A stretch of DNA of 47,800 nucleotides, from positions 1-47,800 of the forward strand of contig CT868082.1 in NCBI GenBank assembly GCA_000165425.1, in the 5' to 3' direction. A model generated the notes under the pieces. It worked only from the letters and a program-made list of their open reading frames with translations. It did no database searches and was not told the origin of the DNA. The stretch is from Paramecium tetraurelia (taxonomy: Eukaryota). The position numbers and the translations under genes were made by a program. Shown here piece by piece: positions 11,601-47,800 of the stretch. Numbering within the stretch: position 1 is the stretch's first letter; each line of letters starts with the position of its first letter.

Positions 11601-12219
11601 AACTTTATTATATCTTTAATCAATAAATTCAGTCTTAAAAAGGGATATTACCTCACTAATATTAAGTTCAATCATTCTTCTAGCCTATTTAATTATATTG
11701 ATTTCTGCTTGTAATAGAGAAACATTAATCAGAAATATAAGTCCAAAGTTCTTATTGTTAAAAAGATATGAGATTTTTAATTTGCTAAGATAAACTAGCT
11801 TCCTGATAATCTTAGTATTCTTATAGCGATAAGAAATTTTGTAGACTTTGCTCATTGCACTAATATGTGTGATGTGTCTCAAAATCGTTTACAATTATCG
11901 AAAGGTTTTTGAGATGGCAAACTTTTTGGTTTAATTTTGTGTTGAAGGATCAATAATATTGTTTACATTTACATCACTCGTATATGTAAGTGATTATGCG
12001 ATATATATCAACTAGGAGCTAAAAATTAAATTTGGTTGGTTTCATATCAGCATTCTCTCAATTGGTCTTATTGTTCAATTAATTATGATTATTTATGAAA
12101 GGATTCGTTCATTCTATAAGAAACACCAGCACGGAAAAGAAAAATTCAGTTAAGTTCGAAAAAATTCTCATTTGATTTTAGTGGAAATAAAAAACCGTGT
12201 TATAATTCAAGATGTATGA
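8613..12219 (+). CDS. cysteine-rich surface/membrane protein with Myxococcus-type Cys-rich repeats and multi-TM C-terminus
   Basis: Signal peptide MFSILIWLVYMKKASC; three tiny introns near the 5' end (e.g. 8707-8732); repeats CGD..EECDDGN..DGC; hydrophobic helices at ~11040-12100; TGA at 12217-12219. Confidence 0.88.
9760..10563 (+). repeat. about five tandem ~60-aa CGD...CDDGN...DGC coding repeats
   Basis: CGD at ~9760, 9939, 10123 and 10309, plus a final partial ECDDGNDLPNDGC near 10523. Confidence 0.85.
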
Positions 12220-12535: not shown

Positions 12536-14098
12536 ATGATTGAACCATAAATGTTAGAAAATCTGGAAGACTTAAAATGTGCATGTATGAGTGATTCTCC
12601 AGTCACAAAAGTAATCTGCGATCATTAATGCTCTGAAATGAATAGACTATTATGTGATAAATGTTGTTAAAACAAAAAATAATATGCATTAAAAATGAAA
12701 ATTCATGAGTTTAGCCAAATCATATTGAATTAATAAAGAGATAAGCTTGCTTCATTTGAAACTTGCATATCGCAATATCAAAATTCTATCAAGTTAATTT
12801 AACAAGAGCTTGAATCAATAAAATATAATTGTATTGATCGACTTGATCAATTATTGAAAATGACATAAGAATGGATTTAAAGCTTAGAAAATCAAAAAAC
12901 TCAAGCAGCCCAATACAGCTTTATTAAAGAGTTCGAAGCTATTATAGAAAATTAAAGGAATCCTAAGGTAAGAAACTATACTGCCTAATGTTAAGCAGAG
13001 ATCGACCTTGTAAGTGCTAGCTATCTGAAGAGGGCATAATCTTATTTAGATTAATTTTAGGCAACATGTGCATCCCAATAGTTTAATAAATTATTCGGAA
13101 ATATATAAGAACTTCATTAAAAACAATGGAAATTAAATTTGGAATGTATCAGTAAAAAGGAAATTCAGAAAGCAAACGTATCCTATGCGATGACATTTAA
13201 TTAAGATAGCTCTCTTTTACTAATGAGTTTGGATAGTGTTATAAAAGTATTTAATATTAGAGGAGGAGAAGTAAAATAATTACAAACTCTTTAACATATT
13301 TCAAAATATGTTACTACTCTAAATGTTTTTAAGAGAGGATCTTTATTTTTGTCTACCTCTTTTGATTCATTTTTAAGGTTAGAATCATTCAATCTATTGT
13401 AAAGATCAAAATATCTTTAAAAATTTGAAGGACATTCAGATGGAGTTTTCTGTTGCAAGATGAATCCACTAAATACTGTGATTATTTCTGGAAGCTTTGA
13501 TAAAAGTATAAAATTCTGGTCAAAATCATTGAATTCATCATGGAAGTGTTTTTAGACAATATCCGAACTCAATGGTGAAGTATATGATTTATCAATCAAC
13601 CAAAAAGGAGACTAGGTTATATCCTGTGGAGTTGCTGGATTTATTTTAGTAATTGAATAACAGAAGCTTAATAGTTGGGTGATCATATAAAAAATCCAAG
13701 TAAATCAACTTGGAGAACATCTGAGTTACATCAGTGACAATTAATTTGTATTTTAACCTTTTACTTCTTAAAGACTTGAATTCTATACTTTAAACAAGGA
13801 AACCAAAGAATATAAGCATTCGTAAAATCTTAAAGAGAATTACGTAGGCATTATAAATAAAGGGAATTCAAGATTTCCTATTATTTACCATTTCAATAAA
13901 GGTTTCGTCTTAAAGTAAGCAGGCTAAGCATTAAACTTTATTAAGTTGATTGATGTTAATTCATTAAACTGTGTTTAGCATAACGTTGATGAATTCAAAG
14001 ATTCATATATTTAAGCTGCTCTCAGTGATGAAGGAACATTACTAGCAACTTGGACTAAAAACTAACAAGTTCTCTAAATTTGGAGATGTGTATATTGA
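12536..14098 (+). CDS. WD40 beta-propeller protein (520 aa), intact member of the same family
   Basis: MIEPQMLENLEDLKCAC...NRLLCDKCC, a coiled coil, then GHSDGVFCC..IISGSFDKSIKFWS and C-terminal AALSDEGTLLATW. The 1563-nt span is divisible by 3. Confidence 0.9.
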
Positions 14099-16723: not shown

Positions 16724-17600
16724 TTCTTTAATATAAATATTAACGCCATTAATAAATACTGAATTTGTTATATATATGTAAATTATATTGATTTCTGATT
16801 AGTCAATAAATTTCCTCAGTTATTTAATAATTATGGATAAGAGAACTTAAATTCTTGTTAGGGAACTATTTTGTTTGTCAATATTGACTATAATTGCTAT
16901 TTAATTTTTAATTGGTCATATAATTCTTGAGCAATATATATCTCTCTTTTAATGTACTCTTAATCAATAAAAACAGCTTCTCAGATTCAGTAAATTTCTT
17001 TGACGATTTAGATTATATCAGTCTGCTGGTGTGTACATATGATACAATAAAAATAATCTGTATATTCATATCTTATAATTATGATTAATTAAAAGAGTAA
17101 TTGATTAATATTAAATTTGTTAGAAATATCTAAACGCTAAAGTAAAATTAATTATTTACAACAATAACGAGATTACATTAAGACAATAATTAAACTTAGA
17201 GATATAAGAATTAATTTGAAATAGGGTTGTTCAAGTTGGAGAAAAAAGAATGTAAATTAAAAATATTATTACAATAAATGTATGATGAGGATACGAATTG
17301 ATAGGAGTTTAGTTACCAAGTAATTGCTCCTTCTTAGTGTAATAATTGATATTATTGAAAGGGCATTAACAATAAATATCTAACACAAAGGGACTTAGTC
17401 TGAAGTTAGGATTTAATGGTGTGATAAAATTGAGAAATTAGTAAAATTTGATGTATTTTAATAATAGATAATAATAAATTGAAATAATTAATGAATTTTT
17501 TGATATCTAGAATAATTGTTAATATTTAGCATCTTTCAATAATGATGATGGTAAGATAATGAGATTGAATAATTAATTTCTCATATTAAATTAATACATA

Positions 17601-19510
17601 ATGAATTCTGATTTATTCGCTTGTTAATTTTGCAAGGAATATTTCTCCATTCAAAGGGAGCCATTCCTATTACCTGATTGTGGTCACAGTGTTTGTGCTG
17701 AGTGCCTAACTGTAAAATTAAAAAATGGAAATTAATTTGTATGCAAAGAAGATGGGTATATATATTTGAATTATTAGGGCAGTGTACAAGTAACAAGGAA
17801 TTAGATGAATGAATTCCCAAAAAACTTTGCTTTGTTGTAGATAATCAAAAATAGACCAACAAACAGAAAAATCGTAATGAACAATTCTCCAAAGTAGACA
17901 GAAATCGAATAGGATTCAGATCGATGCAAGAAACACGGCGAGAGAATGGACGTAGTTTGTGTTGATCATCGTGTAAGGATTTGTGCAAAGTGTGCATTAT
18001 TTGGAGATCATGCAGATCATAAAGTTGTTAACTTGGAAGATGCGTTAAAAAAGATTATTAGAAGAATAGATGAATTGAAGGACATGTCAGAACGACTAGA
18101 CAAAGCAGCAAATGAAACCTTTGAAATGTCCTAGTATTTTAACAAAATTGAGCTGCATTTTTAATCTAACTTGGACATTCAGATCAAGTAAGTCAATGCC
18201 TTTTTCGATGAATTAACCTAAATATTAGATAGCAAAAGAAATAAAATAATCCAAGAATGCAGAGAGAAAATTATACATTCCCAAGAACTATACAATAAGT
18301 ATATAACAGAGTCATTTATCGATGTTCAACGAAAAGTAGAATTGTGGAGAATGACTAGCAAAGATAGAATTCATTACTATGAAGAACAATAAAAGTCTAA
18401 TTCCATTCCATTTGAATTGATTTCAATATCTTCAACCAACGAATTGATGTTGATTGGTGCACAATATTTGAAGGAATTAGAGACTACCAAATAGTAAATC
18501 TTACTCAAAATCGATGAGCCATCCTACAGGGAGATACATCTGGAGATGAAAAGTGATTTGGAGCAATTTATAAATACTCATTTGATTGTTTACTAAAAGG
18601 ACCCCTAATTCAGATTAGAAAACTCATTATCAAGACTTGAATCCATAACTGAATGCTCACTCCTTAAAGATATTAATAGTTCAATCATTCAAGATCCCTT
18701 GAATCAAAATTAAATGGAATTGTGGATCAAATAATACCAAGAAAATCAATAGTACAAACAGTAATTAAATCAACAATTCTAATTGTAATAACAGCAATAA
18801 CAACTATAATAACAGCAATATCTATTTGTGCAACAATAACATTAGTAATAGCCCTCAAATTAGCCATATCAATAGTTGTCTTATTCGAATCATTAGCGAA
18901 CGGATCAACCTTTGACATCTCAAGAGTTAGACGATTAATACTTGAATAACTTGAAGAAATCTCCTTCTGCAACCACTTTGGCTACTAGACGAACTGTGTC
19001 TCCTTCGCCAATCAGAAGATCGATGAAATAAAAGAAGATTAATGAGAAATTCCAGCCTCTGATTGTGAAACTCAAAGGGGACGGATTGGATCAGTGTGAT
19101 TTTAGTTAGGCTGAATTAGGAGATGAAGGGCTATTGTCTCTGATCACAATAATAAAAAAAACAAAGAATCTGAGAGTATTGAAATTGGCAAAAAACAAGA
19201 TTTAAGATGGAGCAGCGTAATAATTGTTGATTGAATTGATAGAGAAGCAAAATGAGAATGAATAGGAGAATAATCAAATATCAACTATAAATTTATCGAG
19301 TAACATGCTGACCGACAAAGTTGTAGACACTATTCTTGATTTATGTAAGATTAATTTAAAAATCATATTTTCTTAGGTAAGAAATTCTCTAAAACTATGC
19401 AGCATTAATCTTTGAATCAGATATATCTAAATCAAAACATCATAAACCTATCAAGAGTGAAGAGAAAAGTGGATGAGATAAAGAAGTACGGATTGATAAT
19501 AGCCATATGA
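17601..19510 (+). CDS. RING / B-box / coiled-coil (TRIM-like) protein with Gln-rich linker and C-terminal leucine-rich repeats; probable E3 ligase
   Basis: RING CQFC..LLPDCGHSVCAEC..CKED; B-box CKKH..VVCVDH..ICAKCALFGDHADH; coiled coil; LRR-like LGDEGL, LRVLKLAKNKI, INLSSNMLTD; two tiny introns; TGA at 19508-19510. Confidence 0.88.
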
Positions 19511-23379: not shown

Positions 23380-25354
23380 TCATTAATAATTTATTTCAAC
23401 ATTGTCACATATTGGAATCTTCCAGAAGTTTTAACATTAGTATTCTACTTCATCAACAGGAGGGAAATAAAGATGGATATCCTTATTCATTTCCACATAA
23501 GTAGTGATTTCATCAGTATTATATTTTTGGATATTGCTATCTGGGTCTATTATGAAGATTCGACTAATATCCACATTGACTGCCTAATAAGCAGTAGAAT
23601 CCTAATAGACATAAATAAATATCTTATTACTGTTAATCTATTTCCAAATCCACAATAGAATGGACTCTCTCCAATGAACAAGTTCCTAATTTCTTTTAAT
23701 GCCGTGATCTTGAATAATTCAGGAGTTCTGTCGATGACTTCTCTCTTAAATGCAGGGAACAAAGAGTCAGGACTCAAAATTATAGGTCCCTTTGGCAATT
23801 TAGTATTATTTTATTGTAGATTTTAAATAAAATCTTTAGTTTGATCTGCTTATCCTATCGCTCTGGCAGTCAAATAAATTATTTTATATCCCATAGATTA
23901 TATATTCTAATAGAGATTGGCTACTCCATCATGATTCCAATCGGTTCCTAATTTTGGCATTAATTAACCCAAAATGTCTGACTTTGTGATGGTACCATCA
24001 ATGTCCGATATCACCAATTTAGTTTTTTAGTCATAAAAGTAGATAGTCCCATGCAATTCCACAATATCACTTTTTTTGGGTATGCATATTCTGTATGTAA
24101 TTTTGTTATTTCCCTTTTTCAATCCTAGTTATTTTAAAATTGATGAATTAGGTTTTAGTATTGGTCTTTATGACTTTCTCCTTTTCTATATGGACATTGT
24201 ACTATATGTATCAATAGAATTCTCACTGAGTTTTCTGAGTCTATCTTAAGATTTAAATTATTGGTGCTGTTTTTGAGTCTATTCATTATTATTTATTCTC
24301 TGAGTATTATTGTTCTATTCAATTTAATCCGATCCTTTCTTCTTACCAAAGAGAACACTATACCATTATTACTATTGTTAAGTGTTCTGCTTCTTCTATT
24401 GATCCAAACTATCAATAACCATATCTTGAGCGAAGACTTGTTTGGCCAACAATTAAATTAATCCTGCTTCTCTGCTGAAGAACTTATCTCCAATCTTAAA
24501 GACAAGATCTTTGTGATTTATGATTTTAAGTGAGTCTTTTTCGAATGCTGAAAAGGAAATTTTGTGTTGTTCGAACAATTGGAATCTCTGAGTTTATGTT
24601 AGATTTTATTATGAGATTTAATATTGACCACAGAGAGAGAGTTCTATTACTGATTGGCGTGGAGAGAGGGTCTCCCTATCACTACAAGTAATATTGTCTT
24701 TCTCGTAATCGTTTGTTTAGATGTGTTTGTCTGATTGTTGGGACTGGAATTATTTTTGCAATTATAATTACGATAGTCTCTAATATGATGATATTATAAT
24801 TACTAAGGATGACGTATCGACTTATTAAAATTCTTTGAGGTTATTTGGTGTTTCAATTTTGATTCCCTCATCTTTTTTGGAATTGGTCCCTTTGCCCCAA
24901 AATTTTAGAGTTTGAAGCCAATTGCTATTCTTCTTGTCACTATTGAACAAATCATCAGGCTTTTTGTAATAGTGTGATTATCTAAACTCCGATGCTTCAT
25001 CAAACAATCTATGTTGTGTAATGTAAAAATTATACGAGATCTTCTCGGAAAATGTGTCATCAGATTGGTAGCCAGAAGAATAGGAACTCTTTTCGAAATA
25101 CGCTGAGCCTTCCTTCCCCAATCTCATTTTCACATCAGTCAATTTGTCATTCACAATAATATCCACTTAGTAGTCTTAACCATCATATTTGCCAAATCGC
25201 ACATGAAATGGGGTCGATTTCAACGATCCATTATGTTATTCCACAACAATTATATCAATACAGCCACTTAGATAGTACTATAAGGGATAGATTTAGATAG
25301 GATTACTTGTCTTGGATCTAACTTGGATATAATCTTTTAAGTTATAGAGGTCAT
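23380..25354 (-). CDS. LPIN: lipin / Pah1 phosphatidate phosphatase
   Basis: N-LIP motif [20 protein letters not shown]; catalytic [31 protein letters not shown]. Confidence 0.95.
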
Positions 25355-33099: not shown

Positions 33100-33567
33100 G
33101 AGTTGTTTTTTATAATATATATTAATAATCAAGAAAATAAAATATGTAAATTTATGAATGAGCCTATATTCTTCAATCAAGTGTAATCTAAAAATAATCA
33201 AATTTATATCTACAAGTGAACTTATTTAAATAATTATAAATTTCTATATCTAATATTATGAAGGTGGAAATATAATTTATAATTGATTATTTTATACCAA
33301 TTTTAAAGGCAGAATGATTAAAATGTGATTGTTGTTTCACTATCATATATAAACAAAAGAAAACTGAAGTTAAGTTAAATTTCATGAGTACTGAATGTAA
33401 TAACATAGTTTTATTTATAAAGAAACTTATAACTATGAAAGTTATTATAATGAAAAATGATTAAGAATAATCTTAATTTTTAAAGGGAAGCATTTGCTAA
33501 ACAAAAATATGAGGAAATTGCAGAAATTACTATTATTTTATAATTGTTTCAAATAGTATTGATTTTA

Positions 33568-34456
33568 TCATCGTTTATGAATTTAAGCTGACATCATTCC
33601 AGTGGTTGTTTAATACATCTAAAGTTAATCCTTCTATACTTACATTTTAATATTATTTTTAGTCTGTTGCCCAAGGTGGCTATGCCTTGCCTTTTTAATA
33701 TGATTAATATTGTTATTTCGAATCCAAAGACATTTGTTGCATCATCTAATCCAATTAATCCATCTTCTAAGGGGTTTATTATGGTTAGACTCTTTATTGT
33801 TGTACTTACTAGTTAACTAATTAAGGGTTTTATGATTATTAATGATTTTGTTGCGCAAATTATTATTGAGAAACATTAGTCGGTCTGTTATCGAAAAAGT
33901 ATTGTGAATAGACCACGTAATTATTATTTTGAGGTATATAATTTTATAAATTGTAGTACTTCTTTAGGAATCCCAACAATTTTGGAGATGGTCGATCATA
34001 ACCTAATTTTTCTGGTCTCAAAGTTTCTTATCTGAGCATTTCTTCAAAGAGCTCTTTGCCAATGCCTTTTCTTTGAACTGATTCATGTACGTAAAAGTCT
34101 AGGACGCACATTGGTTAGATTTCTTTAATTACTCCATTTAAATCTCTATGAAATAAGTTTTTTCTTCCTATTTTTAGAATTCCCAAACAAAGCTGACAAA
34201 TATTTCATAGAATTACTTTTCCTTCTGATTTGATATACATCTTTTGATCCGTCTAAAAGAATCTGATTGGACTTGTAATAACTTATTTCAAATTTTAGGC
34301 CTAATTTAAATAGATGTTGATTACCAATGCAGAAGCCTCGCCCATGACAGTAATAACATCATCCAACTGAGGATTGCGTTTCTAGTTTCCATTCACTATT
34401 GTCATCCCATTCTCATTGACTGCCATGCATTTAGATAAGTAAAAGTTGAATTACAT
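33568..34456 (-). CDS. ATAT1: alpha-tubulin N-acetyltransferase (MEC-17 family)
   Basis: MQFNF..., LGILKIGRKNLF, CVLDFYVHESVQRKGIGKELF, YDRPSPKLLGFLKKYY, PQNNNYVVY, then a Gln-rich tail. Confidence 0.95.
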
Positions 34457-36339: not shown

Positions 36340-37847
36340 AATTACTTAATCTGTTACTAATTACTATTATTTTAACTATTTTAATGAGCTTCATCATCTT
36401 TATTATTCTTATCTTAAATGTTAATTGTACTTTATCTCAATATAATAAAATTTGTAAATTATTTTTATATTTAAAGATGACAATATAGATATGATAGAAT
36501 ATTCTTATAATCATTAAAAATGATTATAAGAATAATTTCTCAAAGAATAAAATCTCGAATTAAATGTTAAAAAACTTAATTTTTCAAATTCTAGATTAAT
36601 TTAAATTATTATTTATCAAATTCTATTAAAAATTATGGAATAAAATAACAAGCTTGAGGTTATAGCCTCACTTATTCTAGAAAACTAAACACATAATGTT
36701 AATAGCTAATATTTACTTTGATAATTCCTATCGTTACGCAAAATTTTGCACTTAAGTAATCGTGATGAAATGATGGCTCATCCAATTACAAATTATTTCT
36801 ATATTTATACTTCAATCAAATGAGAAAGGATAGATGCAACATATGGCCTCAACTCCTTGAAAAATTAATTTTATGGAAATTTTGCTTTAGCAGAATGTTC
36901 ATTTTTAACACAAGAAGGAAGGAATTGAGAAATAATCTTCTTCACAGAGTGAAAACGTTATCTGAAAAACTGATATTCTTAAATATTTGATCACAAGTTT
37001 AGAATAATAAAGGGAAAAGGCAAGTGAGGAATACTATTAGAGAAAAGTACTTAAAATTGACAGAATTTATTTTGATACCATCCACTATTCTAAAATTACA
37101 ATTCTACACAATTTATATTCAGGTAAGTTTAAAAATAGAAGGGAATTTAAGTTACTGTAACAAAAGAGGTTTTTTAAGACTTTAATTTTTCACAATTGAT
37201 ATATCAGATGATAAAAAAGATATATAAGAAGTTTTAATTAATTTTAATGTAATGATTAATATAGAGCTACTATAATTTATTTAAAACTAGAACTTTGGAG
37301 CAGCAAATCATAGTATATTTAAAAAAAGGGAAATTCTATTACAAATTTATCTTTAATTATATGATAAATTGTAGTTTGTATAATAGAATGATCATGAGAT
37401 AATTAATAAACATAGATTCTAAAATCTGTTCAATCCAAAATTCTTATGTTTTCATTTCATTTAAGAAAAGTTAATAAATCGAGATTTCATAATCATTTTT
37501 CAGCATAGATAGAACAAGTTAAAAGGGGTTTTTACATATGATTTAAGTTAATAATTTAGAAGCTCAATCCATTCCCTATATTTATAGTTTTTAAATTATT
37601 GTTATAAATTTCAATATATGAAATTAATAATAATAAATATTTAAAATATTAACTTTAAGGAACATTCTAAATGTTCTAGATAGACAAATTAGTATATCAG
37701 TTCTCATAGAATTAATTACTGATTTGATATTATATATGAACCACAATGTAATTAAAGGATATGATGTAGAAATATTTTATAAGTTAGGATTTTGAATTTA
37801 TAAATTTAATCTTTCTTAAAAAATGTTTATTATTAATTTATTTAGAA

Positions 37848-40800
37848 ATGATTGCATTATTTTAGGTTTTGGATGGTTCACATGTATCCCTATCTGGTTC
37901 TAAGCTTAATATTCTATCAAAAGATAAATCAAATTCCACTATCTTAATATTTGATTCTGATCTCCTTTTGTTTCGGGAGTACTTGATAACAAATAGGAAG
38001 ATTTAGACTGCATTCTGTGATCCAAACATACAGATTCTGCTTTTATTTGAAGAATAGGAATAAGAATAATTGACTTAGCTTTATTCAGCCAATTTAGAAA
38101 AATCTTTTACACCAATATCAAAAATATTGATTCCAGCTACTAAACTAAGAACTATAGATTGGTGTAATTGTAGAATTTGTGCATTAATTTTCGAAAATTG
38201 TGTTGTCTTATATGATATTTTGTTAAACAAAATTTTAACAAAAATTACATCAAATTATAATACTATATCTAGATTTTTAATTTCTAAAAAGCTTACTTAA
38301 ATATTTTGTTAATATTAAGATAGAGAGAATAAATCGATATGTTTGGTATTAACAATTGAGAATTAGAATGAAGTATAGAAGTTTGAGAATTGTGCTTTCT
38401 TTAAATTAATCGAAGAAAAAGATGATAATAATTTGTTGATGGTCCAATATCAATCTAATAAAATGGTAATAATGTTGGCAAAATTTGATGAAGAATTTAG
38501 AATTGAGAGAAAAATTGAGTAATAGCTTTCTAATCCTGATTAAAAAATTATGAAAGTTGGATATAGAAAATAAACGCAAGAATTGCTTTTACTTGATTCA
38601 AACTAAAATTTGCATATTTATTCAATTAATTCAGATTTCTAGATAAATTTGAAAGCCCAAACTATTCCAAATATCATTTAATTTAATGTTTCTCTACTAA
38701 AAGAAAACTTAATACTCATTGACAATAAAAAAAATATAATTCTATAAAAATTGCCATCAGAGACACAAATAGAGCGTTTAACTTATTAAACATAAACTTT
38801 ATCCTTAGCATCTCAGTTTAAAAAGAGAGCTATTTAGGGTATTTTAACAGATCCGAATATTTCTTAATAAACTAAACTATTTGTTCAGTAATATCGTACA
38901 GATTTTGATAACTTGAGCCCAAAATTTAAAAGTATACTAAATCTAAAATTTAAATCTCAGTTCTTACCTCTAGTTGATTTTAGAATTCTAAATCTTGATT
39001 AAAATCATAATTCAAAATTTAAAGAATTTATTCCAAAGATGGATACTTATGCTGAAACTCAAAGTGTGAAGAAGCATTTGATTTAATTAGAGGCTGCTCT
39101 CAAAGGAGATAATCCAATCTTATGTGAAGGTGGTGCTGCTTGTGGTAAGACTTCAATAATCTAATATTTGGCTTATAAAAATCAATAGCCACTAATAATC
39201 ATGAATCTTAGTTCTTTTACTTAAATTTCTGATTTAATTGGCAAAGTTGAAATTTTACCAGGATTTAAATTTGAATTTTAACTTGGTCCTTTTGCTCAAG
39301 CTGTATAAGAGGGTTTGTGGATACTTTTGGATGAAGCTAATTTGGCAAGTGATTCAATACTGAGGGTTATTGAAGATGTTCTTGAACTTGGATACATCAC
39401 TATCTATGGCAGTTAAATTAATTCTCATGTCGATTTAGTTGATGGAACCTTAACAATAAAGAAACATTAAAATTTCAAACTATTTTTAACTCAAAATCCA
39501 GCAACAGATTAAAAGTTTGCTTCTTCTAGAAATATTTTTTCTCCATCTTTGATGAGTTAATTTATTACCATTAAATTTGAGCCAATTAGCCCAAATGACC
39601 TACATTTGATTATTGACTAAATCATATCCTAGAAACAGTAAGAAATAAAAGAACAACTAAAACAACATATACCTAACTAATAATTATCTTCATTGCTAAT
39701 GATAATTTATGAGGAAATTAAATAGAAAAATATGGATGATGGTCTGTTCACCATAAGAGATATTGTTTAAATTATTGATCTTTTCTTTTTATGCCTAGAA
39801 TAAATGAAGGAGAAAGTTTTAGAAATATTAAGTTTTAAGGATTGTATGAAATTAATCTCAACATAGTTCATCTCATTATATAAAAATCGTGAACTAATTA
39901 ATTATTAAATTGACTAAAATAAAGTTCTCTCTAACGCAAATAAGTTATTCTTCTCAACTAAAAATTAGAGAGAGTCTGAAATATAAAATTGGAACAGTAA
40001 TTAGCCACTTAAATTTCTCTCATTCCATAAATATTTATTTCAAATGTTGACATTGTGTTATAAAACGAAAAGAGCGGCTCTAATTGTGGGACAATAATAT
40101 TGTGGAAAATTATCAAGTGTTCTCCTTTGGCTTAAATTGTTGAATATTTCAAAATATGAAGTATTAGAACTATCATCAAATACCACTGCAGAAGATTTAT
40201 TTGGTAAGTATCAACCAACTTAGAATGGTTTTGATTTCATCTTAGGACCAGTAACCAGATGTTTCCATCAAGGAAAAATTTTAATTCTTACTAATTTTGA
40301 TGCCCCCGATTGTGCCTTGACAGAATCACTAAATGGTGTATTAGAAAAGAATTTTAACTAACTGGTAGTATAAAATCAAAAATACTAAAGACATGAAAAT
40401 TTTGCTATAATTGCATTATCATCTGATTTGGAGCAATTAGAAAAAAAAATTACCCCATCTTTGAAAAGCAGATTCGTAAGTTTGTAAATAAAATTTAGAT
40501 TGAATTTGAATGATATCACTTTATTGTTATAATCAATAGGACTAACAAAAAGAAATTTTTAATTTCCTAAAATTATTGATTAGCTGATGACATTAGGTAA
40601 TAGCAAGGATACCTCAAATTTGGGAAAAAAGATTGAACTGATCTCATTTAATAAGATAATTAGATTTTTAAAACCTATTTAAGAGATATAAAAGTTTGCT
40701 AAATCTTAAAATAATTAAGTTTTATAACAAAAAATTTTTGAGTGTATTGATTTCTTCTTAGCCTTTTGTTTGCAAGATAATAAATCCATTTTGAATGATA

Positions 40801-43800
40801 ATATAAAAGTACCAATAAATTACCAAGAATTATTATTAAATAATGGTAGGTAAAATAATTATGTCATTACTGAATCAAGGAAAAGGGTTGCAGACATTAT
40901 TGCAACTGCTATTAATGCTAAAGTTCCGTTAGTTTTATAAGGATCAGCAGGCGTTGGAAAAACAAAACTTATTTCTACATTCTAATAAACATGCAAATTA
41001 TTTGAATCAACTAGTTTTCATTATATCAATATGAATTAAAATTCAGAGTTAAATGATTTAATGGGATAATTTGTATCTACAGGCTAGAAGGATAAGATAG
41101 AATTTACATTTAAAAAAGGTCCATTATTTTTAGGGATGGAGTAAGGTGGCATCGTTCTTATAGATGAAGCTAATCTATCAGATGCTAGCATACTTAACTT
41201 TTTAGCTAATGTAGCCAAGTATCCATCAGAATTTCATGATCCTGTTTCGGATCAAATAATAAGGGTTCATGAAAAATTTCGAATCTTATTTGCATAAAAC
41301 CCTCCATCCTATAATGGCAGAAATTTGCTCCCAGACACATTAGCATCTAAAGTTATAGTGGTCAATGTTCCAAATTATATTTTGGAAGAAGTACTTTAAA
41401 TTTGCACCGAATCTTAGCCTTGTGTGTAAAATGAAAATTAGATTTTCATTAAAAGAGGTATGGAATATTTTCTAACCAAATTAATACAATATCCTAAAGA
41501 TGGTAATGAAAGATAGCTGAATATTAATGGTACTTAATTTACTTTAAGGTAATTCATTAGATTTCGAAATCGATTAGCGAGAACTGGTTTCTCTACAAAC
41601 GAGCCTAATTGGGAAAGCATTTTACAATTACATTAAATGATACTTTTTCCGAAAAATGCCTATGAAGAATATAACTTAGAATCTTAGATAAATAAAATTG
41701 GATAGAATTTATTTTTTTCGATTAAAAATCAATAAGCTTAACTACAAATAGCTCTTAAACTTAAGAATAAAATTTTGAAAAAATATGAGACATTAGTTCA
41801 AAATTTAAACTCAATTTAAAGATTAGTATTCTGCAAAATAGCATTTTGCTATTATTTTAAAGAAAATATTCTAATTTCAGGAGAGACCTCTTCAAAAACC
41901 TACTTGTCTAAATTGTTTTCAGAATTGATTGAATTTTAGAATCCAAATCCATTTGAATTAATTTATGTAACTTCTGAAACCAATATTACTGATTTAGTTG
42001 GCAGTATGGAGTCTCATACTAAAAGTTCTTATCACCAATATTGTTTAAGTTTGATAAGAAGATTTAATTAGAATATGAATTAAAATGAAAAAAAAACTAT
42101 CGAAGATCATTTATAAGAATTAAAATAAAGCTATGATTCACCAGAATTCTTTGATCAAACTATTAAAAATATAGGCAATTAATTTCCCTTTATTGAAAGA
42201 GGATTGACATTTAATGCTAGATTCGGTGGGGTTTTATGTTTAAAAAATATATCATTGGCAGAATAATCTGTTATTGAAGGATTAAATGCTTTATTGGAGA
42301 TTGAACCCCATTTTATTGTAAATGGAAAAGAAATTAAATTACATAATGAATTTATTTTGATTGCAATTATTAATAATACATTTGGAGGTTAATTAAGTGA
42401 TGCATTATAGTCAAGATTTACAAAAATTCGAATTCAAGTTCCAGACCTTATTAATCCTTCTTAAGAAATAGATATTTCTTATGAAAAATATCTTATTAAT
42501 AAAATCCCAGATATAACTTAATAAAAAAATATTATTTAGTTTATAAAGGAACTTCTTATTAGTACAAAATAATATAAGGAGCTTTTCTATTAAAATATAT
42601 CTAATCGCAAATTCTATTAATGGATGAGCTTTTTGAATTTAGATTTGGAGGCAACATTTTAATAAAAATTAGCATTAGGATTTTAATTTGTGATTTTGGA
42701 TAAATATAAAGTAAATTTTGAAGAAGTCATTACGAATCCTGAACTTTAAGAACACTATTAATAAATTTAAAACAAAATTTAACTTAAAATAAAAGAAAAA
42801 TAATTTTTCAATTCTCAAAAAATCATTATAAACCCAATTACTAATAAAATATTATAAAGAATATATTCAGCATTTTCTACAAAATATATACCTTGCCTGA
42901 TAGGACCACCTGGAGTCGGAAAATCTGCCATTGCATAGGAACTTGCTAATATAACTAAAAAAAAATTCTGCAGAATTTGTTGCTCAGATTCTTTGAGTGC
43001 TGAAGATTTATTTGGATCTTATGCACCAAAGATTGAAAATGATAAAGTAGTATTCGTTTTCCAATAGGGTTGTTTGGCATAAGCAATATCTTCAAACAGC
43101 CTTATTCTATTTGATGAAATTAATTTAGTATCTCCTGAAATATTAAGCACTCTTTAAGCTTTATTTAACACTGATGAAAAAGAAATTACAATAAAAGATA
43201 GTACATTTATTAAAGAAAAATGCATATTTTTATGCTCAATGAATCCCACTACATATTAAGGAAGATAAGAATTACCTTAATGCATATCAAATCTTTTATG
43301 CGAAGTGTATATTGAAGCATTCAATATTGATCATGTAATTGACATATTTAAATTGAAATACTAAAAGGAGATCATATAATTATAAAAGGCTGGAATTAAT
43401 TTTAATATTATTTTAGATTTACACAAAGAGCTTGCTTTATTAGACTAAGAATAATAAAAATCCAACTATGACTTTAATATAAGATTTTTGGAAAATCTCT
43501 TGTCTCTTTACAGCTAATATTTTTTAAATCAAATATAAAAATTAAATAATGAAAACCTTAAATTAGAATTAATAATTGTTTGTTTAGATATTATATATGT
43601 TTAACACTTTTATTAGACAGAATTTTCACAATAAGTACTAAAAATAATATTGGATAAATTCGGCTTAAGTTAAGATTAATGGAAAAAACGAAGAGTTTTC
43701 TTAGAATAATAGGGAAATGTAATTAGAATAAGTAGATAAATCGGAAAGGATTTTATACCCATATTTGATTAGGTTTTATCAAATTAGGTCATTCCTTAAC

Positions 43801-46800
43801 TTTCCAATAATTCATTCGTTGTTAACCTACAAAACTCTATTATTTTAGAGAAACTCTTTATTGCAATTAATTCTAAAAAAGTAATATTATGTTAAGGGGA
43901 TGTTTCATCTGGGAAAACCTCATGTGTTATTAAAATGGCAAATCTTTTGAACTAAAGGTTCATTTTGTTGCCAATTCATAGTGATTTAGAAACTGATGAT
44001 TTACTTGGTAGTTTTGCTTAAGTGAACCCTAATCATGATGAAATTTAAGTGGAATTAGAGAGGTTATCAAAAAAATTCATATTGAGAAGATAAGTAATTG
44101 GATAACAATAAAAAGAGATGCGAATGAAATATGCTGAAGGAGTATTAAAAATTTGTTGTAAATTTGGTTATTGGTTAATTTTGGATAATATTAACCTAGC
44201 AAGAGCTGAAATAGTAGAAAGGTTAAATTCCTTAGGAGAAGATTAGCCTTGTTTATTTAATAATGAATTTGGTGATTCAAATACTTGCATAATTCCACAT
44301 GAAAATTTTCGTTTAATATGTTTGTAAAATCCAACGAGAGTAGATTAAAATTAATTGTCTCCTGCCTTTTATAATAGATGTATTAAAATTAATTTTGAAA
44401 TTGATCTAAAACATAATTCAAACGATATTATTGAGATTTTAACCATAAAAGGTTTAGGGTAATAATCAATTCAACAAGATAATGTTGTTCTGGCGAGTAA
44501 TTTATTAAAGTAAGTCATATTTATTAAAGAACATACAAATGCTTTAATTAATATAAGAAATGTTATAAAAGCCTTCAATATGATTCAAGAAAATGGATTT
44601 TAATAGTATGATTAAATAATGGAAATTGTTTTTGGCTCAGAATTTAAAGAATCCAAAAAAAATCCATATTTTCCCATTTTTGATTTAAAGTCTCATAATG
44701 TTACAGATAATATTATGGATAAATACACTGATTCCATATTAAATAAATTAGTCTCAAACACATTAAAATAGATAACTGATTAACCCAAAAAATTTCTAGA
44801 TTTTATAAATATTAGTTAATTTTTAAAAGCAAACTTGCTAGAAAAAGAAATTTAGGTTTATTAAAGGTTCATTTAAGGTATAAGCCAATAAATCTGTCTA
44901 GTTAATTTTGTAGAGGAGAACTAATATGATTTGGGATGTTATAAATTTCAAGTAAAAGGAGAATTAATTAAATATGTTGGTTAACAAACTATAAAAATAT
45001 ATCCAACATTTTTGTCCTTATTTATATAAAGCAAAGTATTGAAGAATTTGTTAGTCAAATCTAAATTTGTATTTTAGGAATAATCTATTTTAGCTGAGGC
45101 AAGGTTAAATTCTGAAGGTCAAATGTTAGTATCGTTCTAGTAACCAAATGATTTATTTTTGGTTCCATTGATTAAGTCTCTTATTGGACCATCTTATTAA
45201 TAGTTTTTTAAGATTTTTAAGCATATGCTCTCAAAATCTGAGATTGAATGCTCAATATATCTAGATTAGCATATAGAACTATTCTTCAATTTTAAATTAC
45301 TTGATTATTCATTATCCTACATCCCCAATCTTTAATTTAAGAATATATTTGGACAAATTTCTTTAAATAAAGAGAATATTATTACATAATTTTCACTAAG
45401 TTGTGATTTATAACTTGAATTAAATTAGTATTTTATTAAAAAAGGTTTCTTTAGCAGAGTGCATAATTTAAATTCACATAGGGGTGAGATTAGTATTCCC
45501 CCTGAAAGTTAAATTTTTATCTTTTAAGATTACAATTGCTTCAATTTATTTTCAAATATAAATATAGTTTAATCTCCAAAGTTTACCTCATATATAGATC
45601 TTGAGGAAAGAAAAGTAGAAATAAATTTAGAATGTGAAAATTCTATTTAAATCTATAAGTTGCCATTTCATATTAGAATAAATAGAATTTTCGTTTATTT
45701 CTTATTAAAAGAAAAAATTACTCTAAATGGAAATATTCAATGTACATTTCAGATATTTGATAAGGATTTTTGTAGTTTAAAGGCCCAAATTGATAAATCA
45801 AAGTTAAAATTACAGTTATCTTAAGGATAGCATTAAATTAATTGTTAAAATTTCATTAAATAATTTTTTTTGAATTATTTTGAGAGCAATAACATTTTTA
45901 TTTAACAGTTTGTGGAGAATTAAAAGACTATTATAAAGAAATTGGATTTAATCACTAATACACTATACTGGAATTATGAATTTAATTTTTAAATTGATTG
46001 GAAAATGAAAATTTTCAAAAATATTATTTTAGAAATGAAAAATATGGATATCTATTGTCATATTGATCCTTAGACAACGAACTTTACTATTTGTTTCACT
46101 ATTGAAATTCTTAAATTTTGTTTTGAATTTTATGTTGATTTTGACTTTTTGTCTTTTTTTTCCAAATAAAAGAAAAAGTAATTGACGATGATTTTAAAAA
46201 GTGGAAAAAATTCTCCTCTTCTAAAAGAAATTATTGAGGTATTTTCAAAAGAATTGAAAAGCAAATTATAAAATATTTCTGGATTTAATTAATAACAAAC
46301 CAAATAATTCAAGAGGAAGGAAGATTCTCCATAATTATTCAATGCTGATAACTTTAGAAAATTAGGAGAGTAACTTTCATAATAATTTGAAGAAAAAGTT
46401 CATTAAATCCACAATGATCTTGGATCTAAATTACGCATCGAAAATTCTTAATCCAATTTGAATGAAAAAATTGAAAAAGAAATTAAATTAAATTATCAAG
46501 AAAATAGCAATTAGAAATTTAAATTATCTCAAGAATCTTATATAATATGGGATGATTAGATTGAGTTGAAATTTAGCGTCGATCTATTAAACCAATGGAG
46601 TGTATCCAAATACTTAACCCTTAGTCAATGTTGTTTAAATATTATAGCAAAAAATTAAAGTTTTGATCTGAATTTAAATGGCTTTATCAAAATTATGAAT
46701 ATGACTCTAAATAAGTTTTAGTTGTTACTAACTCCTAACAGCTTGCTTGATTTAAATATCGAAAATGAACCCTTAATAATGTAGATCAATCCAATTAGTT

Positions 46801-47800
46801 TCGGTTTTGGCTTGCTTGATTATTAGTTTGAAGATTTAGATATATTTCCTAAATTAGATTAAATTGTTGGATTTTAATACAATATGTTATCTCAAAAGTT
46901 TAACGGAGAGTTTAAAGTTGGGAAATAAAATATTAAGCATAACCTTTCTGGTTTATAGTTTGAGAATATTTAACTAGTATTTGGTTCATCTGATAATTTA
47001 AAGAATACCTTCGCAACTTTGGAAATAAAAGTCATTTTCTTTAAGCAAGAAATTAATTTTTATTTATAATTTTAACGCGAATAAATTAATAAACCTAAAA
47101 GTTTAATTAGATAATTACAATTTACTTCCTATGCATTAAAGAATTTTAGTTTTAATGAATTCTTAGAAAATAGTGTTGGAATAACTCTTTCATAAAAAAA
47201 ATTACAGTTTAATGTTGAAAATTTTGAGTTTTTTTTAAAATTAGAAAAGAATTTATCTTGGAAACATTCAATAATATTATAGATATAAAACAGTTAATGT
47301 CAAATTTTAGAGAATTTTGTAAGACTTCAAAATTTGAATGGTTTGATTCTTTATAAAAATTAAAGTTGGGTGGACAGTTGTATATCAGGAATATGCTTTG
47401 TTCGAGATTTTAACTTAGGATCTTTTAGTCTAACTTTTAACAAAGAAGTAAATGGACTTGAAGCTAAATTTTAAGTAAACCCTAAATTTGAGACGAAAGA
47501 ATTTTTCTTAACTATTCATAATAAATAATTGAATTTCATTTTTTTTGAGAATATAGGACATGATGAAATAAAAGTTAACTTGGGTCTTTATAACAATAAA
47601 ACCATATTCGAGCTTAAAGAAGAAGTTAAAATATTCTCATGGAGTAATATCTCAGCTTTAAAGTTGAAAAACATTGTCTTCAAGTATTTTGTAAGTGAAG
47701 AGATTGAAATAGAAAAAAATTCAAATTTTTAATTTGAAATAGAAATTTTTGATGATATTAATTTGAGAACTAAAATAACTATGCTACCTAGGACCACCCT
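37848..47800 (+). CDS. giant midasin-like protein with six tandem AAA+ modules (partial, runs off the window)
   Basis: Walker A sites GGAACGKT (39129), GQQYCGKL (40089), GSAGVGKT (40941), GETSSKT (41880), GPPGVGKS (42903), GDVSSGKT (43896). Midasin-type DLxG, F..GP, DEANLA and QNP motifs. All checked motifs and the 47529 track ORF share the frame of the 37848 ATG. Confidence 0.9.

What the first reader, a model, noticed from the sequence alone, without database searches (positions are those of the whole stretch)
37848..47800. Giant six-AAA+ ring protein with a non-midasin beta-rich tail
Seen: a frame of >3300 codons with six midasin-type AAA modules (~39000-44600). The ~350 aa before them are short beta-strand repeats (IQTAFCDPNIQILLLFE, IMKVGYRKQTQELLLLDS). 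The >950 aa after them are dominated by alternating-hydrophobic strands (YKFQVKGEL, ITLNGNIQCTFQI, FTICFTIEILKFCFEFYVDF, FNGEFKVGK, LGSFSLTFNK). Established: true midasin/Rea1 follows its ring with an alpha-helical linker, an acidic region and a MIDAS domain. Inference: this is a repurposed ring motor with a propeller-like sensor and an extended beta-sheet body (possibly repeating-beta-groove or AsmA/TamB-like). It is a candidate for membrane remodelling or cell-autonomous defence, by loose analogy with RNF213.
Basis: partly seen in the sequence, partly recalled or inferred. Interest (0 to 1): 0.75.

Follow-up and report, generated by a model that had tools for sequence, protein, structure and literature searches.

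The report
Divergent midasin-like giant ATPase of Paramecium
The window holds the first two thirds of a roughly 5,500-codon Paramecium gene for a relative of the ribosome-assembly motor midasin, which keeps the six-module ATPase ring but has a different, strand-patterned middle part and a worn-down binding domain at the end, so it probably pulls on some other, unknown target.

Summary
The frame is real. Under the ciliate code, 37848-47798(+) has 0 TGA in 3317 codons, against 41-156 in the other five frames. It runs off the contig.

It carries six AAA_5 modules that are collinear with the Rea1/Mdn1 ring.

The part after the ring has beta-type hydrophobic periodicity. It shows no profile similarity to the helical midasin linker, although trypanosome linkers matched fungal and animal ones at E 1e-135. 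It has no relatives outside Paramecium.

"Non-midasin tail" is only half right. Full-length relatives (5438-5554 aa) continue into a low-complexity spacer and a probable VWA/MIDAS-derived end domain. The overall plan is therefore midasin's.

The family differs from canonical midasin in several ways:
- Walker A+B are intact in AAA1/3/5, not AAA2-5.
- Midasin lid families are not detected.
- DxSxS is degenerate.
- It lies outside the canonical clan in a ring tree.

My reading is a lineage-specific midasin-derived mechanoenzyme, probably a paralog of MDN1 (0.55).

I could not check whether Paramecium has a separate canonical MDN1. Both AlphaFold models were low-confidence, so the fold of the body is unknown. 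The RBG/AsmA, propeller and RNF213-like ideas found no support.

The parts
37848..47798 (+). 5' part (3317 codons) of a giant gene read with the ciliate code. It is open at the window end. Relatives suggest a full length of about 5,400-5,550 codons.
   Evidence: 0 TGA in frame; collinear with P0003, only four 1-2-residue indels; full-length relatives P0126 5507 aa, P0127 5554 aa; contigs of other runs continue beyond 47782
37848..39014 (+). N-terminal region (~389 aa) of unknown fold. It is conserved within Paramecium.
   Evidence: no Pfam family; PDB phmmer gave only E>1; hhalign against the canonical midasin N-terminal domain Prob 1%; periodicity neutral
39015..44735 (+). Ring of six tandem AAA+ (AAA_5) modules, collinear with the Rea1/Mdn1 ring.
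   Evidence: hhalign ring against ring E 1.1e-91 over 1659 columns
39129..39335 (+). AAA1: intact Walker A (GGAACGKT, 39129-39152) and Walker B (WILLDE, 39318-39335).
40089..40301 (+). AAA2: degenerate Walker A (GQQYCGKL) and no Walker B acidic pair (ILILTNFD).
   Evidence: same in all 8 Paramecium members
40941..41168 (+). AAA3: intact Walker A (GSAGVGKT) and Walker B (IVLIDE).
41880..42248 (+). AAA4: degenerate Walker A (GETSSKT) and no Walker B (VLCLKN).
42903..43118 (+). AAA5: intact Walker A (GPPGVGKS) and Walker B (LILFDE).
43896..44189 (+). AAA6: intact Walker A (GDVSSGKT); the Walker B position reads DN (WLILDN).
44736..47798 (+). First ~1020 aa of a ~1650-aa body with beta-type hydrophobic periodicity. 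It stands in the place of midasin's helical linker and is found only in Paramecium.
   Evidence: periodicity; no linker homology; relatives only in Paramecium; no PDB sequence match; low-confidence AF2 model, 29% strand, 19.5% helix
47783..47800 (.). Last 18 bases of the window. They are not matched by contigs of other runs, so the last ~6 codons of the frame are doubtful.
   Evidence: table 8 (the fit ends at 47782 while X16 record 6 continues for 2845 letters)

Best explanation
The window holds the first ~3,317 codons of a Paramecium gene of about 5,500 codons. The gene encodes a midasin-derived giant AAA+ mechanoenzyme from a lineage distinct from canonical MDN1/Rea1.

Shown:
- A six-module midasin-type ring in which AAA1, AAA3 and AAA5 keep both Walker motifs, AAA2 and AAA4 have lost them, and AAA6 keeps Walker A only.
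- After the ring, a ~1,650-aa body with strand-like periodicity that is unrelated in sequence to the helical midasin linker.
- In full-length relatives, a ~900-aa Q/N/S-rich low-complexity spacer and a ~600-aa end region.

Likely: the end region contains a VWA fold descended from the midasin MIDAS domain, with the metal-site motif degenerate (DxSxL/M or DxNxF instead of DxSxS; H/N at the later Asp position).

Inferred mechanism, by analogy with Rea1: ATP turnover at the three alternating sites changes the ring. The body transmits this. The tethered end domain holds a partner and pulls it out of a complex. Because the metal site is worn and the ring's active-site pattern differs, the partner is probably not the Ytm1/Rsa4 UBL domains. 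I expect a separate canonical MDN1 in the genome, but this is not shown.
For: Gene and ring:
- The gene is real.
- The ring has six AAA_5 stretches, Mdn1/Rea1 as best solved relatives and collinear profile alignment at E 1.1e-91.

Differences from canonical midasin:
- A canonical fungal midasin (P0014) hits AAA_lid_7 3.5e-55, AAA_lid_5 3.7e-27 and MDN1_4th 7.4e-16. None of these is among the 25 families shown of 27 found for P0001 at E<=0.1.
- Walker A+B are in AAA1/3/5 in all 8 Paramecium members and in P0008. Three canonical midasins have Walker B in AAA2-5, as stated for Rea1 in PMC6286127 (passages read).
- Tail against canonical tail gives Prob 0.1%, while the control gives Prob 100%, E 1e-135, over 1877 columns.
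- Periodicity is 0.60 in three family members against 0.35-0.39 in five canonical linkers.
- A phmmer search of the tail against 1.84 billion representatives found only its own cluster and two fragments.

End domain in relatives:
- In the ESM Atlas search the rows shown for the best hits were VWA-type (VWA, VWA_CoxE, CobT_C), apart from one cluster without a family at rank 15. The best score was 0.94, and the ten best hits that carry a family share a family or clan.
- Foldseek on the low-confidence model had tandem-VWA PTMP1 as best hit (E 6.2e-4). At least 24 of the 44 rows listed are VWA or integrin-I type by title.
- A five-sequence profile against the canonical MIDAS profile gave E 0.0053 over 167 columns, in register from the conserved pre-beta1 motif through the DxSxS position.
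- P0008 links to the Paramecium end domain with Prob 84%, E 8e-6.

Ring tree:
- Canonical midasins of fungi, animals and trypanosomes form one clan (SH-aLRT 100) that excludes Paramecium.
- The AU test rejects canonical+Paramecium+P0008 as one clan (p 0.00076).

Expression:
- RNA-library contigs (18, at least 99% alike) cover 21 of 30 bins.
- 8 stranded RNA read mates lie with the orientation expected for + strand RNA.
Against: - I could not search a Paramecium genome for a second, canonical MDN1. Paralogy therefore rests on divergence and an unrooted tree, with long branches and skewed composition flagged by the program.
- The AU group was named after seeing the tree.
- UniRef names the P. 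tetraurelia member 'Midasin'.
- The domain order is the same as midasin's, which also fits a fast-evolving ortholog.
- The VWA/MIDAS reading of the end domain is not secure. Pfam found nothing. A canonical MIDAS HMM did not hit P0005. hhalign probabilities are low (0.5-6.8%). The AF2 model has mean pLDDT 37.
- The beta-rich nature of the body rests on periodicity and on a model with mean pLDDT 34. Its fold is unknown.
- The end domain lies outside the window. Its presence in this very gene is inferred from P0127, a member of the 90% identity cluster of P0004, whose lineage is sister to window+P0003 in the ring tree.
- RNA evidence is thin, and the contig library may hold DNA.
Confidence: 0.55

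Rival explanations
1. It is Paramecium's own MDN1/Rea1 ortholog, duplicated by the whole-genome duplications. [quoted passage not shown]
For: - Best solved relatives are Mdn1/Rea1.
- The ring is collinear.
- The domain order is the same: ring, ~1,650-aa middle, low-complexity spacer, VWA-like end.
- UniRef names it 'Midasin'.
- No canonical Paramecium or other ciliate midasin appeared among the 120 best of 2329 ring hits, nor by composition among those held.
Against: - The Walker pattern is 1/3/5 instead of 2-5.
- Midasin lid families are not detected.
- The linker is not alignable, although trypanosome linkers are.
- DxSxS is degenerate in 4 of 4 end domains, although the canonical motif binds the UBL ligands.
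- It lies outside the canonical clan, and even a protein labelled as from an archaeal MAG (P0052) is nearer to canonical midasins and keeps a recognisable MIDAS domain, E 9.5e-14.
- The list of 120 is only the top of 2329 hits, so a canonical ciliate MDN1 could sit lower.
Confidence: 0.25
2. One reading: a repurposed ring motor joined to an extended beta-sheet body of the repeating-beta-groove or AsmA/TamB kind, acting in membrane remodelling, lipid transfer or cell-autonomous defence.
For: - Strong alternating hydrophobic periodicity over ~1,650 aa.
- The low-confidence AF2 model draws many 10-16-residue hairpins separated by helices.
- Such amphipathic strands would suit a sheet with one greasy face (inference).
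Against: - No Chorein/VPS13/ATG2/AsmA/TamB family among the Pfam hits of P0001 (E<=0.1) or of the 4204-aa P0003 (E<=0.01).
- No internal repeats by self profile comparison (best off-diagonal Prob 0.6%).
- Foldseek gave only scattered hits with E>=0.028, none of these kinds (the model is too poor to count as a test).
- The ESM Atlas search found no named family.
- The protein ends like midasin, in a tethered VWA-like domain.
- Nothing links it to defence.
Confidence: 0.08
3. It is not a functional gene: a chance open frame under a code with one stop codon, or a decaying pseudogene.
For: With only TGA as a stop, long frames are easier to get in AT-rich DNA. RNA support is thin.
Against: - 0 TGA in 3317 codons against 41-156 in the other frames.
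- 84-89% identical and collinear with the P. octaurelia protein.
- Conserved at 47-78% among older paralogs.
- Catalytic motifs are conserved in 8 of 8 members.
Confidence: 0.02

Closest known systems
Midasin / Rea1 / MDN1 (pre-60S assembly-factor remover)
   Same: - Six AAA_5 modules in one chain, collinear with the Rea1 ring.
- In full-length relatives the same order of parts: N-terminal region, ring, ~1,650-aa middle, long low-complexity spacer, terminal VWA-like domain.
   Different: - Walker A+B in AAA1/3/5, not AAA2-5.
- Midasin lid families not detected.
- The middle part is not alignable to the helical linker and has strand-type periodicity.
- The spacer is Q/N/S-rich, not D/E-rich.
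- DxSxS is degenerate.
- It lies outside the canonical clan.
P0008/P0125, an unnamed 4107-aa protein from ENA assemblies (ring, acidic spacer, VWA-like domain, LRRs)
   Same: - Nearest non-Paramecium relative of the ring (27% identity over 94%, 517 bits) and sister in the tree (long branches).
- Same AAA1/3/5 Walker pattern.
- Shared motif before beta1 of the end domain (Prob 84%, E 8e-6).
   Different: - It has no long strand-patterned body (tail periodicity 0.49).
- An acidic spacer follows the ring directly.
- It ends in leucine-rich repeats.
- Its composition is not AT-biased.
MoxR-type AAA+ with VWA partners (NorQ/NorD, CbbQ)
   Same: - Same AAA_5 clade: NorQ/CbbQ chains are the only other solved hits (E 7.8e-7 to 5.2e-4).
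- They work with a VWA domain, and the NorD VWA is among the Foldseek hits of the end domain.
   Different: They are single-module proteins that form homo-hexamers, with the VWA on a separate chain.
VWA8 (several AAA_5 modules plus a terminal VWA, about 1,900 aa; recalled, no sequence examined here)
   Same: AAA_5 modules followed by a VWA domain (recalled).
   Different: VWA8 has no long middle part or spacer (recalled). Not tested further.
RNF213 and dynein heavy chains
   Same: Six AAA+ modules in one polypeptide (established knowledge).
   Different: No RNF213 or dynein chain matched at E<=0.001. No RING or E3 family and no dynein linker, stalk or tail family among the Pfam hits.
Repeating-beta-groove (VPS13/ATG2) and AsmA/TamB proteins
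   Same: Only the long run of amphipathic strand-like periodicity.
   Different: No family hit, no repeats and no fold match.

Membership tests
Midasin/Rea1/MDN1 | Six tandem AAA+ modules of the AAA_5 type in one chain, collinear with the Rea1 ring | tested here: met
   6 AAA_5 stretches, E 3.9e-74; Mdn1/Rea1 best in PDB; ring profile alignment E 1.1e-91 over 1659 columns
Midasin/Rea1/MDN1 | Midasin-specific lid domains (PF17867 AAA_lid_7, PF17865 AAA_lid_5, PF21108 MDN1_4th) | tested here: not met
   Absent from the 25 shown of 27 families at E<=0.1 for P0001, so any match has E>0.027. Absent at E<=0.01 in P0003, P0004 and P0006. Present in canonical P0014 at 3.5e-55, 3.7e-27 and 7.4e-16.
Midasin/Rea1/MDN1 | Hydrolytic sites in AAA2-AAA5; AAA1 and AAA6 lack Walker B | tested here: not met
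   Walker A+B in AAA1, AAA3 and AAA5 only, in 8 of 8 Paramecium members. Canonical P0014, P0029 and P0121 show AAA2-5. The Rea1 statement is in PMC6286127.
Midasin/Rea1/MDN1 | About 1,700-aa alpha-helical linker homologous across eukaryotes | tested here: not met
   hhalign Prob 0.1% against the control's 100%, E 1e-135. Beta-type periodicity 0.60 against 0.35-0.39. The fold itself is unresolved (pLDDT 34).
Midasin/Rea1/MDN1 | D/E-rich spacer before the end domain | tested here: inconclusive
   Not in the window. Relatives have a ~900-aa low-complexity spacer in that place (entropy 2.0-2.9 bits), but it is Q/N/S-rich.
Midasin/Rea1/MDN1 | C-terminal MIDAS (VWA) domain with an intact DxSxS metal site | tested here: inconclusive
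   Not in the window. A VWA fold in relatives is likely. The motif reads DLSQL, DLSQI, DLSSM and DMNSF in 4 of 4, so the intact site is not met. The canonical MIDAS HMM gives no hit.
Midasin/Rea1/MDN1 | Orthology: the genome's closest counterpart of MDN1, nested among eukaryotic midasins | tested here: inconclusive
   Not nested in the canonical clan. The AU test gives p 0.00076 against one clan with it. The tree is unrooted with long branches, and no Paramecium genome could be searched.
Repeating-beta-groove / AsmA-TamB proteins | Match to Chorein_N, VPS13, ATG2, AsmA or TamB families, or repeated five-strand units forming a groove | tested here: not met
   No such Pfam family. No internal repeats. 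Foldseek gave nothing of the kind, but the model is poor.
RNF213 | AAA ring plus RING and E3 module; sequence kinship with RNF213 | tested here: not met
   No RNF213 chain at E<=0.001. No RING or E3 family.
Beta-propeller N-terminal sensor (WD40/Kelch and the like) | Repeat family match or blade-like repeats in residues 35-423 | tested here: not met
   No repeat family. Periodicity is not different from shuffles. PDB phmmer gave nothing below E 1.
VWA8 | Kinship of the ring and VWA with VWA8 proteins | not tested
   No VWA8 sequence was at hand.

The most novel reading that the evidence does not exclude
A midasin-type ring has been joined in Paramecium to a new ~1,650-residue amphipathic beta-sheet body, a kind of force-transmitting or cargo-carrying element not known in any AAA+ motor. 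Together with P0008 it would define an unrecognised, old eukaryotic branch of 'alternating-site' (AAA1/3/5) midasin-like mechanoenzymes with metal-independent VWA heads. These would act on a non-ribosomal target such as a cortical, membrane or secretory structure.
Probability: 0.12. Interest if true: 0.85.

Novelty: new variant of a known kind. Interest (0 to 1): 0.5.

Why it matters
Midasin is usually treated as a single, highly conserved, essential motor with one job. This family shows that the same ring and domain plan can be rebuilt. It has a different set of live ATP sites, a middle part with no detectable likeness to the helical linker, and a binding head that has lost metal-site residues.

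If a canonical MDN1 coexists in Paramecium, this is a second, lineage-specific use of the midasin machine. Its partner would be worth finding. Its body would be a natural experiment on how a ring transmits force through something other than the helical linker.

If no canonical MDN1 exists, ciliate 60S maturation runs on a very unusual Rea1. That would be equally informative.

Tried and rejected
- Whole-genome search for a second midasin was not possible: no genome is held.
- Earlier findings of the scan: nothing.
- AlphaFold2 of the tail (5-row alignment) gave mean pLDDT 34.1. For the end region of P0005 (2 rows) it gave 37.1. Neither is good enough to name a fold. Foldseek on the tail model gave only scattered hits with E>=0.028.
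- ESM Atlas search on the tail: recognition 1094, and none of the 30 hits has a family.
- phmmer of the tail against PDB found 0 matches at E<=10. For the N-terminus it found two chance-level rows.
- hmmsearch with a canonical MIDAS HMM built here did not hit the Paramecium proteins. hhalign with 1, 2 and 4 sequences stayed at E 0.08-0.12. Only the 5-sequence profile that included P0008 reached 0.0053.
- Self-comparison of the body found no repeats.
- Literature gave nothing on this family. Searches were midasin+Paramecium, midasin+Tetrahymena, midasin-like/AAA+/paralog, Rea1/MDN1/ciliate terms, the P. tetraurelia gene and protein identifiers, and VWA8+midasin. PMC3495828 and PMC5100056 (passages read) mention midasin only in general evolutionary terms.
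- The joints in the DNA contigs have sides of only 20-21 letters and were not taken as introns or rearrangements.
- No complex prediction was sent. No binding claim is specific enough to test.
Full report
**What is in the sequence**

The window is AT-rich (GC 0.21-0.34). It has no ORF of 150 aa under the bacterial code in the region. Under the ciliate code it has one frame of 3351 codons, 37746..47798 on the + strand, open at the window end. Counted from the Met at 37848, which lines up with the start of the closest relative, the frame has 0 TGA in 3317 codons. The other five frames have 41-156 TGA. 224 TAA/TAG codons are read as glutamine. The closest proteins are all from Paramecium aurelia-complex species, so this is Paramecium macronuclear DNA. 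The frame is collinear with the 4204-aa P. octaurelia protein P0003 (84-89% identity). The only differences are four indels of 1-2 residues, so there is no sign of read-through introns.

Transcript evidence is thin:
- 18 contigs of an RNA library, at least 99% alike, touch 21 of 30 bins of the gene region.
- 8 mates of a stranded RNA run lie in 3 bins, with the orientation expected for a + strand RNA.
- The program warns that contigs of an RNA library may be DNA.

Contigs of two other runs stop matching at 47782 and then continue; one runs on for 2845 more letters. The gene therefore goes on past the window, and the last ~6 codons are doubtful.

**The ring**

Pfam finds six AAA_5 stretches (E 3.9e-74). 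Against all PDB chains, the only matches at E<=0.001 are five midasin sequences (E 5e-74 to 2.6e-71) and four NorQ/CbbQ MoxR proteins. No dynein and no RNF213 chain matched. A profile of the Paramecium ring aligns collinearly with a profile of 27 canonical midasin rings (E 1.1e-91, 1659 columns).

The ring is not a canonical midasin ring:
- A fungal midasin (P0014) hits the midasin lid families AAA_lid_7, AAA_lid_5 and MDN1_4th at 3.5e-55, 3.7e-27 and 7.4e-16. None of them is among the families found for the window protein or three relatives.
- Walker A plus Walker B are intact in AAA1, AAA3 and AAA5. They are lost in AAA2 and AAA4. AAA6 has Walker A and 'DN' at the Walker B position. This holds in 8 of 8 Paramecium members.
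- Three canonical midasins scanned the same way have Walker B in AAA2-5. This is what PMC6286127 states for Rea1 (passages read).

**The part after the ring**

The fraction of 11-residue windows whose hydrophobic moment is larger at 170 degrees than at 100 degrees was compared across regions:

| Region | Fraction |
|---|---|
| Tail in the window | 0.60 |
| Tail of P0003 | 0.605 |
| Tail of P0005 | 0.60 |
| Shuffles of the same residues | 0.475-0.485 (sd about 0.03) |
| The protein's own ring | 0.42 |
| Five canonical linkers | 0.35-0.39 |

Along full-length relatives the signal runs from about residue 2400 to 4050.

The profile of this region has no similarity to the canonical tail, meaning linker, acidic region and MIDAS (Prob 0.1%). 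In the control, trypanosome tails match fungal and animal tails with Prob 100%, E 1e-135, over 1877 columns.

Further searches on the tail found the following:
- phmmer against 1.84 billion representatives found only its own cluster and two fragments of 67 and 51 aa.
- The word-based search found only four other Paramecium proteins.
- PDB phmmer found nothing at E<=10.
- The ESM Atlas search found no named family.
- A self-comparison found no internal repeats.

AlphaFold2 with the 5-row alignment gave mean pLDDT 34.1. The model is 29% strand and 19.5% helix, with many long hairpins, but it is too unreliable to name a fold. Foldseek on it gave only scattered weak rows. What stands is this: the region is strand-patterned, specific to Paramecium and not the Rea1 linker. 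What it folds into is not known. Nothing supports RBG, AsmA or TamB.

**The N-terminus**

The ~389 residues before the ring match no family and no solved chain below E 1. They do not match the canonical midasin N-terminal domain (Prob 1%), and their periodicity is like that of shuffles. 'Propeller-like sensor' has no support.

**What the whole protein looks like**

The window gene is cut by the contig end. Relatives are longer:
- P0005 (P. pentaurelia): 5438 aa.
- P0126 (P. octaurelia): 5507 aa.
- P0127 (P. primaurelia): 5554 aa. It is in the 90% cluster of P0004, the sister of window+P0003 in the ring tree.

Several shorter database entries (3256-4204 aa) look like truncated gene models. After the body, the long relatives have about 900 residues of low-complexity Q/N/S-rich sequence (entropy 2.0-2.9 bits), followed by about 600 ordinary residues.

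For that end region:
- Pfam finds nothing.
- In the ESM Atlas search the rows shown for the best hits were VWA-type (VWA, VWA_CoxE, CobT_C), apart from one cluster without a family at rank 15. The best score was 0.94, and the ten best hits that carry a family share a family or clan.
- The AF2 model is poor (pLDDT 37.1). Foldseek on it nevertheless puts the tandem-VWA protein PTMP1 first (E 6.2e-4). At least 24 of the 44 rows listed are VWA or integrin-I domains by title, including NorD.
- hhalign against a canonical MIDAS-domain profile always picks the same register. A motif that is identical in four paralogs (KGTTIDIKGIIKFFCTNGTA.DI...) is laid on the conserved midasin motif before beta1. 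The following VVLDLSQL is laid on the DxSxS strand. E is 0.08-0.12 with 1-4 sequences and 0.0053 over 167 columns with five.
- The fifth sequence is P0008, whose own motif matches the Paramecium profile with Prob 84%, E 8e-6.

The metal-site motif reads DLSQL, DLSQI, DLSSM and DMNSF in the four Paramecium end domains. The later Asp position aligns with N-H. I take a midasin-derived VWA head with a degenerate metal site as likely, at about three in four, but not as shown.

**Ortholog or paralog**

Among 2329 ring relatives (E<=1e-10), the 120 best are:
- the window's own protein (P0002);
- five Paramecium proteins;
- P0008 (27% identity over 94%, 517 bits), an unnamed 4107-aa protein from ENA assemblies;
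- rotifer and other 'midasin' paralogs;
- canonical midasins at 21-27% identity.

No other ciliate appears among the named rows, and none of the proteins held has a ciliate-like composition apart from the family itself.

P0008 shares several features with the family. It has the AAA1/3/5 pattern and the end-domain motif. It lacks the strand-patterned body and ends in leucine-rich repeats.

A ring tree was built from 33 rows and 1902 columns, with LG+G4 and a quick search. It has three clans: Paramecium+P0008, a rotifer/JGI group, and the canonical midasins of fungi, animals and trypanosomes. A protein labelled as from a Thermoproteota MAG (P0052) attaches to the canonical side. The canonical clan has SH-aLRT 100. 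P0052 keeps a recognisable MIDAS domain (E 9.5e-14 with my HMM, which hit 39 of the 123 proteins then held at E<1e-5). The AU test rejects putting canonical midasins, Paramecium and P0008 on one side of a branch (p 0.00076).

Caveats:
- The tree is unrooted.
- The program flags long branches meeting and skewed composition.
- I named the tested group after seeing the tree.
- The decisive test, looking for a second canonical MDN1 in a Paramecium genome, could not be run.

My odds are 0.55 for a distinct midasin-derived lineage beside a canonical MDN1, and 0.25 for a very divergent ortholog.

**How it most likely works**

Shown:
- A ring with three alternating complete ATP sites.
- A long conserved body.
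- In relatives, a flexible spacer and a terminal globular region.

Inferred by analogy with Rea1 (PMC6286127, and the abstracts of PMC11603028 and PMC6624252 seen in the listing):
- The tethered head binds a partner and docks on the ring.
- ATP-driven changes in the ring are passed through the body.
- The partner is pulled out of a larger assembly.
- The degenerate metal site and the changed ring argue for a partner other than the Ytm1/Rsa4 UBL domains, bound without the MIDAS ion.

The identity of the partner and the cellular site are unknown. No paper in the searched library mentions the family or its P. tetraurelia identifiers. bioRxiv supplements, for example those of the Paramecium subcellular proteomics preprint listed, could not be seen and might hold a localisation.

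**Verdict**

- The object is a new variant of a known kind: a midasin-plan motor with a replaced middle part, a different active-site pattern and a worn MIDAS head.
- It is so far annotated only as 'Midasin' or 'AAA+ ATPase domain-containing protein'.
- Interest is moderate (0.5). It would rise if a canonical MDN1 is shown to coexist and the body proves to be a new kind of sheet structure.

Noticed in passing
window 23487-25244 (-): A lipin/Ned1/Smp2 phosphatidate phosphatase gene (LNS2 E 3.7e-72, Lipin_mid, Lipin_N) under the ciliate code.
   Followed up: no
window 33173-34186 (-): The frame begins with a Mec-17-type alpha-tubulin acetyltransferase domain (E 3.8e-42, profile positions 77-173). 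The rest looks like Q-rich and then hydrophobic read-through, so the gene model needs introns or ends to be set.
   Followed up: no
window 3956-5314 (-) and 12536-14098 (+): Two WD40-repeat proteins with similar Cys-containing, coiled-coil-like N-terminal halves, probably paralogs. The P. primaurelia gene model P0124 fuses the end of a midasin-like gene to WD40 repeats, probably a merged neighbour.
   Followed up: partly
window 8887-12219 (+): An 1110-aa frame with four DUF4215 Cys-rich repeats (E 4.2e-50) followed by a long hydrophobic C-terminal part. It is likely a surface or membrane protein.
   Followed up: no
window 17298-19415 (+): A RING plus B-box zinc-finger protein with a Q-rich middle.
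   Followed up: no
window 47783-47800: The last 18 bases of the window are not matched by contigs of runs X16 and X17, which fit up to 47782 and then continue. There are also two C>T differences, at 47517 and 47636. The contig end looks unreliable.
   Followed up: partly
window 37634-38141: In runs X16 and X17 a contig joins 37634 to 38141 with 14 other letters between. This would remove the gene's start (table 5c). It may be a paralogous locus or an assembly effect.
   Followed up: no
proteins P0008/P0125 (ENA, unnamed organism): A 4107-aa protein with the same AAA1/3/5 Walker pattern, an acidic spacer directly after the ring, a VWA-like domain and C-terminal leucine-rich repeats. It suggests a wider, undescribed branch of midasin-like proteins.
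   Followed up: partly
proteins P0009-P0013, P0019, P0040 (rotifers and a JGI protein): Proteins named 'Midasin' by UniRef form a third clan apart from canonical midasins in the ring tree, with yet another Walker pattern in P0009.
   Followed up: no
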